The notes below the pieces were generated by a model. The model saw nothing but the letters and a program-made list of their open reading frames with translations, made no database searches and was not told where the DNA came from. DNA of 64,000 nt, taken from assembly GCF_009931435.1 (NCBI RefSeq), contig NZ_CP043414.1; one strand, written 5' to 3'. This stretch comes from Escherichia coli. GTDB lineage: Bacteria > Pseudomonadota > Gammaproteobacteria > Enterobacterales > Enterobacteriaceae. The position numbers and the translations under genes are program-made. Below, piece after piece: positions 11,941 through 58,423 of the stretch. Within the stretch, counting starts at the first letter, position 1. Each line of letters opens with the position of its first letter.

Positions 11941-12180
11941 AATAGTGGCCTTATGCAGATGAATGACGTCGCAAGCAATTACTTAACGATCGATAACTAA
12001 ATGATAGATGTGATCTGGATCACATACAAGATATTTTTTATAACAATCATTAATTAATTTAAAAATCTTTAAATTTCAGTTAAATAGAAAGCAATTATTT
12101 TTATGGTTTGTGGACTGGTGAACGGAGGTGATTATTTTTATAATAACCTTTCATTCACAGTCACCAGGTACAACGGCATC
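11941..12180. promoter_or_regulatory. Divergent bhsA/comR promoter region (expected ComR operator)
   Basis: 240-bp AT-rich intergenic region between divergent bhsA and comR; the operator itself is not pinpointed. Confidence 0.4.
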
Positions 12181-15208: not shown

Positions 15209-15339
15209 TAGGCCTGATAAGACGCGAGCGGCGTCGCATCAGGCACATTGCCAGTGTCGGATGCGGCGTGAACGCCCTATCCGACCTACAGAATTTACAG
15301 AATCTGGAACGCATCAGGTATCAGCAAGGTTACCTGATG
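15209..15339. repeat. REP/BIME cluster plus perfect 9-bp-arm inverted repeat downstream of ycfP
   Basis: taggcctgataagacgcgagcggcgtcgcatcaggc, gtcggatgcggcgtgaacgccctatccgacctac, and catcaggta-N10-tacctgatg. Confidence 0.7.
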
Positions 15340-21734: not shown

Positions 21735-23168
21735 TTAGTGGTTACGGATGTACTCATCCATCTCGGTTTTCAGGTTATCGGATTTAGTACCGAAAATCGC
21801 CTGAACACCAGAACCAGCAACCACTACGCCCGCTGCGCCCAGTTTCTTCAGGCCAGCCTGATCCACTTTAGACACATCAGCAACGCTGACGCGCAGACGG
21901 GTAATACATGCGTCGAGGTTAGTGATGTTTTCTTTACCACCAAACGCAGCAACCAGAGCCGGTGCCATTTCGCTGGTACCTGTCGCTTTTGCATCATCAG
22001 TCGCGTCTTCACGACCCGGCGTTTTCAGATCCAGTGCTTTAATCAGCACGCGGAAGATGGTGTAGTAAACAATTGCATAACCGATACCGACGATCGGGAA
22101 CAGCCACAGTTTGCTGCTGTTACCAGACAGAACGATGAAGTCGATCAGACCGTGCGAGAACGACGTACCGTCACGCATCCCCAGAAGAATACAGATAGGG
22201 AATGCCAGGCCTGCCAGAATCGCGTGGATGATGTACAGGATCGGCGCAACGAACATGAAGGAGAACTCGATAGGCTCGGTGATACCGGTCAGGAACGAGG
22301 TCAGCGCCGCGGAGATCATGATACCGCCCACTTTCGCGCGGTTTTCCGGTTTAGCAGAGTGCCAGATAGCAATTGCGGCAGCTGGCAGACCGTACATTTT
22401 GAACAGGAAGCCGCCAGACAGTTTACCCGCAGTCGGGTCACCCGCCATATAACGCGGAATGTCGCCGTGGAAAACCTGACCTGCAGCGTTGGTGTATTCA
22501 CCAATCTGCATCTGGAAAGGTACGTTCCAGATGTGGTGCAGACCAAACGGTACCAGGCAACGTTCGATGAAACCGTAAATGCCAAACGCAACTACCGGGT
22601 TCTGGTAAGCAGCCCACTGAGAGAAGGTCTGGATTGCAGAACCAATAGGCGGCCAAATGAAGGACAGCACAACGCCAGTAAAGATGGCAGCCAGGCCTGA
22701 AATGATCGGCACAAAGCGTTTACCGGCAAAGAAGCCAAGATACTCAGGCAGCTTAATACGGTAGAAACGGTTAAACATGTACGCTGCGATCGCACCGGAG
22801 ATGATCCCCCCGAGTACGCCAGTATCCGCCAGGTGTTTAGAGGCGATTTCTTCAGCAGGTAAATGCAGTACCAGTGGCGCAACCACGGCCATGGTTTTAA
22901 CCATGATGCCATAGGCAACAACTGCGGCCAGCGCGGATACGCCATCGTTATTGGTAAAGCCGAGGGCGACACCGATCGCAAAAATCAGTGGCATGTTTGC
23001 AAAGACGGAACCGCCTGCTTCTGCCATAACATGCGATACAACGGCGGGCAGCCAGCTGAAATTCGCGGAACCGACGCCCAGCAGAATACCTGCGATAGGC
23101 AGTACGGATACCGGCAGCATCAGCGATTTACCGACCTTTTGCAGGTTAGCAAATGCATTCTTAAACAT
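21735..23168 (-). CDS. ptsG: Glucose-specific PTS enzyme IICB
   Basis: 477-aa [36 protein letters not shown]... with C-terminal EIIB motif [13 protein letters not shown]. Confidence 0.95.
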
Positions 23169-23200
23169 AATTGAGAGTGCTCCTGAGTATGGGTGCTTTT
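23169..23200 (-). promoter_or_regulatory. ptsG 5' leader / RBS region, the known SgrS pairing target
   Basis: Minus-strand sequence aaaagcacccatactcaggagcactctcaattATG directly upstream of the start codon. Confidence 0.6.
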
Positions 23201-23461
23201 TTACGTTCTCACGCGTGGCAAGGGGGGAGAGCCTCGCCGTGTACAGGGCATCTAAGCGCCCTTTATTTATTACACAGAGTAAAATAATTCAGTGCCGATT
23301 TGTTTGACGGCTATCACGTTTCAACTTCAGATCATTGGAGAAGTTGCACATTTTGACAAAACATATGTCACAATATTTCAAACGTGGTTATTCACCGCCC
23401 AATTTTCGGCGGTGAACTTTACTCGTTTTAGCCATTAATTACGAGCTTTAAAAAAACTCAT

Positions 23462-24259
23462 TCAAAGGATGGATTGAAGGCGGGAAGCGTCGATGTGAAA
23501 CAGACGGGCGAAGTTATCGGTGGTTACCTGCGCCAGTTCTTCAACGGCAACACCTTTCAACACAGCCATGTATTCTGCAACGTCACGAACCATCGCAGGT
23601 TGATTCTCTTTTCCTCGATGCGGAACCGGTGCAAGGTAAGGTGAGTCAGTTTCTACCAGTAACCGATCGAGGGGGACATAACGCGCGGCATCGCGCAGTT
23701 GCTCCGCATTACGGAAGGTCACAATGCCGGAAAAGGAGATGTAAAATCCGAGATCCAGTAATTTACCCGCCGTTTCTCTGTCCTCTGTAAAACAGTGTAG
23801 TACGCCACCACAATCCGTCACTTTTTCTTCGCGCAGAATTGCCAGCGTATCGGCGCGGGCGTCACGGGTGTGGACGATAACCGGCTTGTTCAGTTCACGA
23901 CCAATCTGGATATGATGGATGAAGGACTCTTGCTGCCGTACTTTAGTTTCCGGCGTGTAATAATAATCCAACCCGGTTTCACCCAGCGCAACAACGCCCT
24001 CTTCTGCCGCCAGACGGCGTAAATCTTCTACATCGTAGGGATCATTCTGGTTGAGTGGATGCACGCCACAAGAAAATACGACGTTGTCACGTTCGCCTAC
24101 CAGATCCCGCATGTGTAAATAACCCGGTAATGTTGTGGCGACTGCCAGACAAAATTTCACATCGCGTGCGGCGGCTTTCGCCAGAACGTCATCCACGTCC
24201 TTATGCAAAGATTCATAATCCAGACCATCGAGATGGCAGTGTGAGTCGACTAAAAACAT
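23462..24259 (-). CDS. ycfH: TatD-family metal-dependent nuclease YcfH
   Basis: Start at internal ATG ([15 protein letters not shown]) gives 265 aa. Confidence 0.88.
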
Positions 24260-24269
24260 GATGTTTCTC

Positions 24270-25274
24270 TTAAAGATGAGGAACCGGTAGCACAACGCCC
24301 GGTTGCAGGTAATGCTCAATACGCAGTAAAAGATCGGTGATGAGAAGCTCGCGGTTAATACCTGTGACAGACATTAACTGTTCACGAATGTGGCAAACAT
24401 CCCCCAGTATAGCCTGTAGACGCGAGGGAGAAAGATGGTTTGCCAGTTCGACGACCAGGCCCGGCACATCAACATTGGTAACCTGCGCAGCGCCATGATG
24501 GCGTTTTAGCGCATCCATCAGCAACGTTGCCAGCCAGTGTAAACGCGCCGGAGCTTGTTCATGATTAAGGGCCGCTAGCAGCGAATACCAGTCGCCCGAT
24601 TGCACGCTATATGCCAGCGCCTGACACAATGTTTCACGAGCCTGCCAGATATCTCCCTGAAACAACGCCAGTGCCGCACCAGGCGAACCGGCGCTTAAGC
24701 GCAATGCGGCAAGTAATGTATCCTGTGACATTGTCACTTCGCGTGAAAGCCAAGTCACGGCGTACTGTTCCGGCGGCGGCGCAAGGTAATGTAACCGACA
24801 ACGACTACGTAATGTTGCCAGTAAACGTTCAGGCTCGCGGGTAGCAAGGAAAAACCAGGTTTCTGCTGGCGGCTCTTCAAGCGTTTTCAGCAATGCGTTA
24901 GCCGCAGCGTCGGTCAGTAAGGCAGCATCGGTTACCCAGACAACTTTTGCACCGCCTAAGCGTGCGTGCTCATTCAGCTTTTCGGTAACTTCACGTACCG
25001 CATCAATGCCCAGCGCATTTTTCCCTTTTTCGGGAGCCAGGGTGTAATAATCGGGATGCGTGCCAGCCTGCATCAACTGACATCCACGACAGTGACCGCA
25101 ACTTTTGTGGCCCTGCGGTTGTTGGCAGAGTAAATAACGGCTCAGGGCGTAGATTAAAGCATCCTCGCCCATACCCGGTAACGCCTGAATGAGTAGCGCA
25201 TGGTGACCTCTTCCGGCCTGATAGCTGGCTACCAGTTTTTCGAAATCAGGTCGTAACCATGGATACCATCTCAT
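24270..25274 (-). CDS. holB: DNA polymerase III delta-prime subunit
   Basis: 334-aa [31 protein letters not shown]... with zinc module CGHCRGC; overlaps tmk by 4 nt. Confidence 0.92.
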
Positions 25275-58373: not shown

Positions 58374-58423
58374 TATCCTTTGTGTCCGGCAAAAACATCC
58401 CTTCAGCCGGAGCATAGAGATTA

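What the first reader, a model, noticed from the sequence alone, without database searches (positions are those of the whole stretch)
23169..23461. ptsG leader and upstream control region
The ptsG 5' leader (aaagcacccatactcaggagcactctcaatt-ATG) is the established pairing site of the sRNA SgrS. The roughly 290-bp upstream region before ycfH should hold the CRP and Mlc operators, which I could not place confidently by eye. An overlapping 118-aa ORF on the + strand (22951-23307) is probably spurious.
Basis: partly seen in the sequence, partly recalled or inferred. Interest (0 to 1): 0.3.

Follow-up and report, generated by a model that had tools for sequence, protein, structure and literature searches.

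The report
E. coli ptsG promoter and leader
This 293-bp stretch is the ordinary, well-studied control region of the E. coli glucose-transporter gene ptsG, and I could place its SgrS pairing site, one CRP site and two Mlc operators at exact coordinates.

Summary
Window 23169-23461 is the ycfH-ptsG intergenic region of E. coli, read on the minus strand, and it is 100% identical to natural isolates. K-12 SgrS nt 168-187 pairs with 23196-23177, covering the Shine-Dalgarno AGGAG. This is the best duplex of about 64,000 positions tested in the whole window (-27.1 kcal/mol; next best -23.3). A footprint across 79 Enterobacterales places the protein sites. The CRP box is at 23321-23300: its half-sites GTGA and TCAA are invariant and its spacer is variable. 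Mlc operator O1 is at 23287-23265, over the P1 -10 and start. Mlc operator O2 is at 23456-23434, just after the ycfH stop. A matrix built only from these two boxes also finds strong sites in the K-12 malT, manX and ptsH promoters and a weaker one in mlc. These positions match the published geometry as I recall it (CRP at -40.5, Mlc at about -6 and -175 from P1). I could not retrieve those papers. The antisense 118-aa ORF is spurious. Everything central is already known. The only mildly new items are side observations: conserved leader hairpins, one with an invariant C-rich loop, and two natural polymorphisms.

The parts
23434..23456 (-). Mlc operator O2 (TTTTTTTAAAGCTCGTAATTAAT), centre 23445, about -175 from P1 and 6 bp after the ycfH stop
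   Evidence: It meets the Mlc rules of PMC4288165: TT at -6,-5, AA at +5,+6, A/T at +/-11 (sequence). The arms are 81-89% conserved and the centre 64% in 79 Enterobacterales. It has the second-best matrix score in the window, 26.0.
23416..23421 (-). TAAAGT, a -10-like hexamer for the minor upstream promoter P2 (inferred)
   Evidence: GAGTAAAGT is nearly invariant in Enterobacteriaceae. It fits a P2 start about 140 bp upstream of P1, which I recall from Plumbridge 1998 but did not verify here.
23390..23417 (-). GC-rich stem-loop (GTTCACCGCC / GGCGGTGAAT), probably the ycfH intrinsic terminator
   Evidence: dG is -18.8 kcal/mol, z -4.17, with 0 of 200 shuffles as good. A hairpin is predicted in 77 of 77 orthologues with 73 distinct stem-arm combinations, and 41 of 77 have at least 5 T in the next 10 nt. 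The T-tract is weak in E. coli.
23300..23321 (-). CRP site AAACGTGATAGCCGTCAAACAA (core 23318-23303), centre 23310.5, which is -40.5 from the inferred P1 start
   Evidence: It is the only match within 2 mismatches to TGTGAN6TCACA in the intergenic region. GTGA and TCAA are 100% conserved and the spacer 74% in 79 species. It is among the two most conserved 20-nt blocks.
23278..23283 (-). P1 -10-like hexamer TTTACT, with the inferred +1 at about 23270
   Evidence: 95% conserved. The +1 is placed from the published 103-nt K-12 leader, which is from memory; PMC7870926 uses a 105-nt 5' UTR reporter. It was not mapped here.
23265..23287 (-). Mlc operator O1 (TTATTTTACTCTGTGTAATAAAT), centre 23276, covering P1 from -17 to +6
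   Evidence: It meets the TT/AA and +/-11 A/T rules. The left arm is 100% conserved, the right arm 94% and the centre 73%. It has the top matrix score in the window, 27.0.
23245..23262 (-). Leader hairpin 1, near the 5' end of the P1 transcript
   Evidence: Predicted in the minimum-energy fold. 97.7% of cells are paired and 2 pairs carry compensatory changes.
23217..23238 (-). Leader hairpin 2, with the conserved C-rich loop CUCUCCCC (23231-23224)
   Evidence: 6 of 7 pairs show compensatory changes. CUCCC sits in a hairpin loop in 68 of 81 leaders, with 46 different stems.
23203..23214 (-). Leader hairpin 3 (4 bp, GAGA loop)
   Evidence: Predicted in the fold. 76.7% of cells are paired with one-sided changes only, so support is weak.
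23177..23196 (-). SgrS pairing site GCACCCATACTCAGGAGCAC (8-nt core ATACTCAG at 23190-23183; C23187 and C23185 face SgrS G178 and G176)
   Evidence: Duplex with SgrS nt 168-187 at -27.1 kcal/mol, the best in the whole window. The core is 94% conserved. The position is conserved in 77 of 80 orthologues. Literature.
23180..23184 (-). Shine-Dalgarno AGGAG, 11 nt before the ATG, inside the SgrS duplex
   Evidence: Read directly from the sequence. ACTCAGGAG is present in 77 of 80 orthologues.
23166..23168 (-). ptsG start codon
   Evidence: The product is 100% identical to E. coli PtsG (L078).
22951..23307 (+). Spurious antisense ORF (118 aa, TTG start)
   Evidence: Its C-terminal third is changed by the A7 allele in K-12. 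The length of the open frame varies from 27 to 119 codons in orthologues. It has no Pfam match.

Best explanation
The region is the canonical transcriptional and post-transcriptional control region of E. coli ptsG, read on the minus strand.

Transcription from the main promoter P1 starts at about 23270. It is activated by cAMP-CRP bound at 23321-23300 (class II position, -40.5). It is repressed by Mlc bound to two 23-bp AT-rich quasi-palindromes. O1 (23287-23265) overlaps the -10 and the start, and so excludes RNA polymerase. O2 (23456-23434) lies about 169 bp upstream, over the minor promoter P2. When glucose is transported, dephosphorylated PtsG itself captures Mlc at the membrane and repression is lifted.

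The P1 transcript has a leader of about 102 nt. It carries three small conserved hairpins, followed by a single-stranded A-rich stretch and the ribosome-binding site. Under sugar-phosphate stress, SgrS with Hfq pairs through nt 168-187 with 23196-23177. This covers the Shine-Dalgarno AGGAG, blocks translation and leads to RNase E decay.

Shown here: the sequence features, their statistical standing, their conservation, and the sharing of the Mlc box with other Mlc-regulon promoters. Inferred from the literature: protein binding, start sites, Hfq and RNase E dependence, and the PtsG-Mlc sequestration loop.
For: SgrS. A 17-bp duplex at -27.1 kcal/mol ranks first of 63,978 windows (mean -8.8, sd 2.9, next best -23.3). 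Its position is conserved in 77 of 80 orthologues, and the core and flanks are 86-100% conserved. Published compensatory genetics on G176 and G178 are cited in PMC2760806 and PMC7870926. The AdiZ preprint's C-19 maps to window 23187.

CRP. It is the single match within 2 mismatches in the intergenic region. Its half-sites are invariant and its spacer variable in 79 species.

Mlc. There are exactly two matches to the minimal pattern in the intergenic region, and they coincide with the most conserved AT-rich blocks. The matrix built from them scores 27.0 and 26.0 against 18.5 for the next site in the window. It also finds malT at 23.6, manX at 16.9, ptsH at 16.3 and mlc at 9.8 in K-12. The +/-11 positions are T and T, as required for Mlc rather than NagC.

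Geometry. With +1 at 23270, the CRP centre is at -40.5, O1 at -6 and O2 at -175. These match the positions I recall from Plumbridge 1998 and Kimata 1997/1998.

General statements that CRP activates ptsG, that Mlc, Fis and ArcA repress it, and that SgrS binds near the start codon come from PMC8846999 and PMC11588850.
Against: No binding or start-site data were generated, and the primary mapping papers were not held. The +1 positions and the numbers -40.5, -6 and -175 therefore rest on memory plus geometric consistency.

The CRP core and the minimal Mlc pattern are not enriched above chance on their own: 17 against 27 expected, and 60 against 76 expected, in the window.

One study reports no ChIP enrichment of Mlc or Fis at ptsG in MG1655 under its conditions (PMC8846999).

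I used K-12 SgrS, because the strain's own sgrS is not in the window.
Confidence: 0.95

Rival explanations
1. The two AT-rich palindromes are operators for the paralogue NagC, or generic AT-rich or Fis-binding promoter DNA, rather than Mlc operators.
For: PMC4288165 states that the NagC and Mlc logos are essentially indistinguishable. Fis sites are reported in this promoter. The minimal pattern is not enriched in the window.
Against: Both boxes have T at -11 and +11, the Mlc-specific feature; high-affinity NagC sites have G or C there. The matrix derived from them finds sites in malT, manX, ptsH and mlc, the Mlc regulon. The pattern of conserved arms and a variable centre is that of a dimeric operator, not of general AT-richness.
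Confidence: 0.04
2. The complementarity to SgrS is incidental: the block is conserved only because it is the ribosome-binding site.
For: The duplex includes the Shine-Dalgarno sequence, which would be conserved anyway. An 8-mer match alone is expected about twice in 128 kb of sequence.
Against: Conservation extends well 5' of the Shine-Dalgarno sequence (ATACTC 94%, GCAC 91%). The duplex is the best in the window by 3.8 kcal/mol. Published G176C/G178C and compensatory data support pairing. A second sRNA, AdiZ, uses the same site in Salmonella.
Confidence: 0.02
3. The CRP-like box is a chance match, and ptsG activation by CRP is indirect or acts elsewhere.
For: It has 2 mismatches in the core, and about 0.1 such matches are expected by chance in 293 bp. 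The right half-site TCAAA is weak.
Against: The half-sites are 100% conserved and the spacer variable across 79 species. The centre falls at exactly -40.5 from the inferred P1 start. crp-knockout evolution studies repeatedly select ptsG promoter mutations.
Confidence: 0.03
4. The 118-aa + strand ORF (22951-23307) encodes a real antisense protein.
For: It is an uninterrupted 118-codon frame in this strain.
Against: It has a TTG start. It lies antisense to a highly expressed gene. A common within-species indel (A7) rewrites its last third. Stops appear at codon 27 in 20 of 78 orthologues. It has no Pfam family.
Confidence: 0.01

Closest known systems
E. coli K-12 ptsG regulatory region (promoters P1 and P2, CRP site, two Mlc operators; Plumbridge 1998, Kimata 1997/1998)
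   Same: Same locus and same gene order (ycfH-ptsG-fhuE). The region is 291 of 293 positions identical to MG1655, and every operator sequence is unchanged.
   Different: There are two natural polymorphisms outside the operators. C replaces T at 23297 (P1 spacer, -27), an allele identical in about 1,452 complete genomes. The leader has A6 instead of A7 at 23202-23197; the 52-nt leader segment around the A-run is identical in 242 of 5,423 genomes.
SgrS-ptsG mRNA pairing (Vanderpool and Gottesman 2004; Kawamoto 2006; Maki 2010; PMC7870926)
   Same: SgrS nt 168-187 pair with the region around the Shine-Dalgarno sequence. The 8-bp core holds the G176:C and G178:C pairs.
   Different: Nothing in the duplex differs. 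The A-run polymorphism lies one base 5' of the duplex.
Other Mlc operators (malT, manX, ptsH P0, mlc)
   Same: All are 23-bp AT-rich quasi-palindromes with TT-N9-AA and A/T at +/-11, and all are found by the ptsG-derived matrix.
   Different: ptsG has two operators about 169 bp apart. I found only one strong site in each of the others.
AdiZ-ptsG pairing in Salmonella and Citrobacter (bioRxiv 10.1101/2025.06.06.658255)
   Same: It targets the same leader site; ptsG C-19 corresponds to window 23187.
   Different: The preprint states that the AdiZ seed is not conserved in Escherichia, so it probably does not apply to this window.

Membership tests
SgrS target site (Hfq-dependent sRNA pairing at a ribosome-binding site) | Complementarity to the SgrS 3' seed (nt 168-181/187), including pairs with G176 and G178 | tested here: met
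   17 pairs at -27.1 kcal/mol; C23185 pairs with G176 and C23187 with G178. It is the best of 63,978 windows.
SgrS target site (Hfq-dependent sRNA pairing at a ribosome-binding site) | The duplex overlaps or abuts the Shine-Dalgarno sequence or the start codon | tested here: met
   AGGAG at 23184-23180 lies inside the duplex at 23196-23177.
SgrS target site (Hfq-dependent sRNA pairing at a ribosome-binding site) | The site is conserved in species that carry SgrS | tested here: met
   The best pairing position is the same in 77 of 80 orthologous leaders, and the core is 94% conserved. The sgrS genes of those species were not fetched.
SgrS target site (Hfq-dependent sRNA pairing at a ribosome-binding site) | Hfq- and RNase E-dependent repression in vivo | not testable with these tools
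   Literature only.
CRP (cAMP receptor protein) class II activator site | A 22-bp site with TGTGA-N6-TCACA half-sites | tested here: met
   cGTGA-N6-TCAaA has 2 core mismatches. This is not significant by count alone.
CRP (cAMP receptor protein) class II activator site | Half-sites under selection while the spacer is free | tested here: met
   GTGA and TCAA are 100% conserved and the spacer 74% in 79 species.
CRP (cAMP receptor protein) class II activator site | Centred near -41.5 or -40.5 from the transcription start | tested here: inconclusive
   The centre at 23310.5 is -40.5 only if +1 is 23270. That +1 comes from remembered literature and a 105-nt UTR reporter, not from data here.
CRP (cAMP receptor protein) class II activator site | cAMP-CRP binding and activation | not testable with these tools
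   Literature states that CRP activates ptsG.
Mlc operator (ROK-family NagC/Mlc box) | A 23-bp quasi-palindrome with TT at -6,-5 and AA at +5,+6 | tested here: met
   Both O1 and O2 meet it. They are the only two matches in the intergenic region.
Mlc operator (ROK-family NagC/Mlc box) | A or T at +/-11 (Mlc) rather than G or C (high-affinity NagC) | tested here: met
   T and T in O1, and T and T in O2.
Mlc operator (ROK-family NagC/Mlc box) | The same motif is present in other Mlc-regulon promoters | tested here: met
   The ptsG-derived matrix finds malT at 23.6, manX at 16.9, ptsH at 16.3 and mlc at 9.8. At most 5e-5 of window positions score at or above 16.3.
Mlc operator (ROK-family NagC/Mlc box) | It overlaps the promoter so as to repress it | tested here: inconclusive
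   O1 spans -17 to +6 of the inferred P1. O2 lies about -34 from the remembered P2. The start sites were not mapped here.
Mlc operator (ROK-family NagC/Mlc box) | Mlc binding, relieved by dephosphorylated PtsG | not testable with these tools
   Literature. One ChIP-qPCR study saw no enrichment.

The most novel reading that the evidence does not exclude
The P1 leader carries a structurally conserved hairpin (23238-23217) whose stem changes freely by compensatory substitutions while its apical loop keeps CUCCCC in most Enterobacterales. This could be an undescribed cis-regulatory RNA element of ptsG, for example a docking site for a protein or a G-rich sRNA, or a determinant of stability or translation. 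It would act separately from the SgrS site.
Probability: 0.2. Interest if true: 0.35.

Novelty: already known. Interest (0 to 1): 0.1.

Why it matters
It matters little as a discovery. ptsG control by CRP, Mlc and SgrS is a textbook model of catabolite control and sRNA silencing. The footprint also shows that the whole architecture is conserved across Enterobacterales: O2, a hairpin, CRP, O1, three leader hairpins and the SgrS site. The conserved C-rich loop in the leader is the only element I could not tie to a described function.

Tried and rejected
- Full-length SgrS against the leader with RNAduplex gave a meaningless end-to-end duplex.
- A 34-nt SgrS probe did not discriminate; the ptsG site was not among the top hits. 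Restricting the probe to the published nt 168-187 did discriminate.
- The CRP core and minimal Mlc pattern counts are at or below chance in the window. I therefore did not rely on them.
- The primary mapping papers (Plumbridge 2001, PMC29661; El Qaidi 2008, PMC2446801; PMC24238, the id I recalled for Kimata 1997; Kimata 2001, PMC125514) are not held. Several searches for site coordinates and for start-site datasets found nothing usable.
- RNAalifold on a broad 35-species leader alignment returned no structure. A narrower alignment with an explicit structure did work.
- I considered that the C-rich loop sequesters the Shine-Dalgarno sequence as an anti-SD. The predicted pairing probability is about 5e-5, so I rejected this.
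- A permissive Rfam search of the region gave only a chance hit, HCV_SLVII at E 0.65.
- The sigma-70-like match at 23359-23331 lies in the least conserved part of the region (0.38 identity) and is at chance frequency.

Full report
**What is there.** The window is E. coli chromosome. ptsG is the 477-aa ORF at 21735-23168 on the minus strand. fhuE lies downstream of it on the plus strand, and ycfH (23462-24319), holB and tmk lie upstream on the minus strand. The 421 bp around the finding match 5,424 of 5,426 complete E. coli genomes, annotated ptsG/ycfH. K-12 has the same arrangement. The finding's coordinates, 23169-23461, are exactly the 293-bp ycfH-ptsG intergenic region. The quoted leader string is at 23199-23169 on the minus strand, followed by the ATG at 23168-23166.

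The intergenic sequence is identical to natural isolates such as CFSAN061763. It differs from MG1655 at two positions: C for T at 23297, and A6 for A7 at 23202-23197. Both are natural alleles. The 52-nt leader segment is identical in 242 of 5,423 genomes, and the 53-nt promoter segment in about 1,452.

**SgrS site.** sgrS is not in the window; no Rfam SgrS hit was found. I therefore used K-12 SgrS (L002:868-1094). SgrS nt 168-187 form a 4+8+5 bp duplex with 23196-23177 at -27.1 kcal/mol. The 8-bp core CUGAGUAU:ATACTCAG lies at 23190-23183, with G178 and G176 facing C23187 and C23185. The Shine-Dalgarno AGGAG (23184-23180) lies inside the duplex.

I scanned the same 20-nt SgrS segment against every second 24-nt window on both strands of the 64 kb. 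This site is the best of 63,978 (next best -23.3; mean -8.8, sd 2.9). In 80 orthologous loci the best site within -300..+60 starts at -31 to -25 in 77. Conservation covers GCAC (91%), the core (94%), GA (100%) and GCAC (86%). The CC at 23192-23191 is free to vary (18%); C23191 faces the U182 mismatch.

This agrees with PMC7870926, which states that nt 168-187 are complementary, that 168-181 are sufficient, and that G176 and G178 are critical. It also agrees with PMC2760806, which describes an 8-bp core at the ribosome-binding site. A 2025 preprint reports that the Salmonella sRNA AdiZ uses the same site, with ptsG C-19 corresponding to window 23187, but that its seed is not conserved in Escherichia.

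**CRP and Mlc operators.** Consensus counting alone is weak.
- TGTGAN6TCACA with up to 2 mismatches occurs 17 times in the window, against 27 expected. It occurs once in the intergenic region, at 23318-23303 (CGTGATAGCCGTCAAA).
- The minimal Mlc pattern from PMC4288165 is TT at -6,-5, AA at +5,+6 and A/T at +/-11. It occurs 60 times against 76 expected. Exactly two matches fall in the intergenic region, at 23287-23265 and 23456-23434.

I therefore fetched 80 ptsG loci from Enterobacterales genomes. ycfH-ptsG synteny and an intergenic length of about 290-340 bp are conserved. I aligned the upstream regions. The mean identity of the other sequences to the window base across the intergenic region is 0.62.
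- In the CRP box, GTGA and TCAA are 100% conserved and the spacer 74%.
- O1 has a left arm at 100%, a right arm at 94% and a centre at 73%.
- O2 has arms at 81-89% and a centre at 64%.
- The stretches between these blocks are at 34-38%.
- The two most conserved 20-nt blocks are O1 and the CRP box.

I then built a symmetric matrix only from the 65 distinct orthologous O1 and O2 instances. It scores O1 at 27.0 and O2 at 26.0, and the next window site at 18.5. In K-12 it finds one strong site in each of the malT (23.6), manX (16.9) and ptsH (16.3) promoters, and a weaker one in mlc (9.8). At most 5e-5 of window positions reach 16.3. The motif is therefore shared by the Mlc regulon. T at both +/-11 positions in both boxes fits Mlc rather than NagC.

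**Geometry.** The published K-12 leader is 103 nt (from memory; PMC7870926 uses a 105-nt UTR reporter). This puts P1 +1 at about 23270 in this A6 strain. The CRP centre (23310.5) then falls at -40.5, O1 (centre 23276) at -6, spanning -17 to +6, and O2 (centre 23445) at -175. These are the values I recall from Plumbridge 1998. The primary papers were not held, so I treat this as consistency, not proof. TTTACT (23283-23278, 95% conserved) is the likely P1 -10. TAAAGT (23421-23416), which is conserved, would suit the reported minor promoter P2 about 140 bp upstream.

**Other features in the 293 bp.**
- A GC-rich hairpin at 23417-23390 folds at -18.8 kcal/mol (z -4.2). A hairpin is predicted in all 77 orthologues tested, with many different stems, and is usually followed by a T-rich tail. 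It is most simply the ycfH terminator, with a degenerate T-tract in E. coli.
- The P1 leader has three small hairpins. On a 31-sequence Enterobacteriaceae alignment, 89% of cells pair, against 37-47% when the partners are slid. Eight pairs carry compensatory changes, and no shuffle of 500 reaches the observed values.
- Hairpin 2 (23238-23217) has compensatory changes in 6 of 7 pairs, yet its loop CUCUCCCC is kept. CUCCC lies in a hairpin loop in 68 of 81 leaders, with 46 distinct stems. I found no description of this loop in the papers I could read. A role as an anti-SD is not supported (pairing probability about 5e-5).

**Antisense ORF.** The 118-aa + strand ORF is antisense to the first 218 nt of ptsG and the leader. 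The common A7 allele frameshifts it in K-12 (101 codons, with a different tail). Its length in orthologues ranges from 27 to 119 codons, and it has no Pfam match.

**Verdict.** The elements are the known ptsG regulatory elements in a natural allele. Novelty: already known. Interest is low (0.1).

Noticed in passing
window 23217-23238 (-): Leader hairpin 2 has a freely covarying stem (6 of 7 pairs compensatory) but a conserved C-rich loop. CUCCC sits in a hairpin loop in 68 of 81 Enterobacterales leaders. I found no described function for it, and pairing with the Shine-Dalgarno sequence is not predicted.
   Followed up: partly
window 23197-23202 and 23297: There are two natural polymorphisms against K-12. 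The leader A-run has 6 A instead of 7; the 52-nt leader segment around it is identical in only 242 of 5,423 complete genomes. Position 23297, in the P1 spacer, is C instead of T, an allele in about 1,452 genomes. Both lie outside the operators and the SgrS duplex.
   Followed up: partly
window 23466: The last codon of ycfH is CTT (Leu) here but CGT (Arg) in K-12 and in the best-matching E. coli genome compared. This was the only difference from that genome (CFSAN061763) in the 421-bp query, whose top database matches were all 99.8% identical. The C-terminal residue varies among other genera.
   Followed up: partly
window 23390-23417 (-): A strong conserved stem-loop lies between Mlc O2 and the CRP site. 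It is probably the ycfH terminator, although its T-tract is weak in E. coli. The remembered P2 start would fall inside its 5' arm.
   Followed up: partly
window 12009-12024: A perfect CRP consensus, TGTGATCTGGATCACA, lies in the comR-bhsA divergent intergenic region. An AT-rich sequence next to it (12036-12058) scores 18.5 with the Mlc matrix but fails the TT/AA rule.
   Followed up: partly
window 23218-23226 (-): The 9 nt CCCCCTTGC in the leader are perfectly complementary to SgrS nt 7-15 (GCAAGGGGG). 6% of shuffled leaders give a match at least as long, and both partners lie in hairpins, so this is probably chance.
   Followed up: partly
L004 and L005 (about 1395-1480 upstream part), also L020, L022 and L030: Citrobacter werkmanii and C. 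youngae carry an insertion of about 125 nt in the ptsG leader just 5' of the SgrS site, and Pseudocitrobacter and one Enterobacter carry one of about 85-125 nt. In L004 it is an imperfect palindrome (dG -49.7 kcal/mol). From memory it resembles an ERIC/IRU element.
   Followed up: partly
window 23943-23965: A sequence inside the ycfH coding region (TATTATTACACGCCGGAAACTAA on the minus strand) meets the minimal Mlc pattern and scores 13.8 with the matrix. It is probably chance.
   Followed up: no
window 36307-36643, 34278-34446, 15211-15286, 58374-58423: Rfam gathering-threshold hits elsewhere in the window are the rne 5' UTR element, SraB sRNA, naRNA4 and the PyrC leader.
   Followed up: no
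window 23245-23262 (+) and 23331-23359 (-): The simple scanners flag a + strand terminator-like site, which is only the reverse complement of leader hairpin 1 plus the AT-rich O1. They also flag a sigma-70-like promoter in the least conserved part of the region. Both are at chance frequency.
   Followed up: yes
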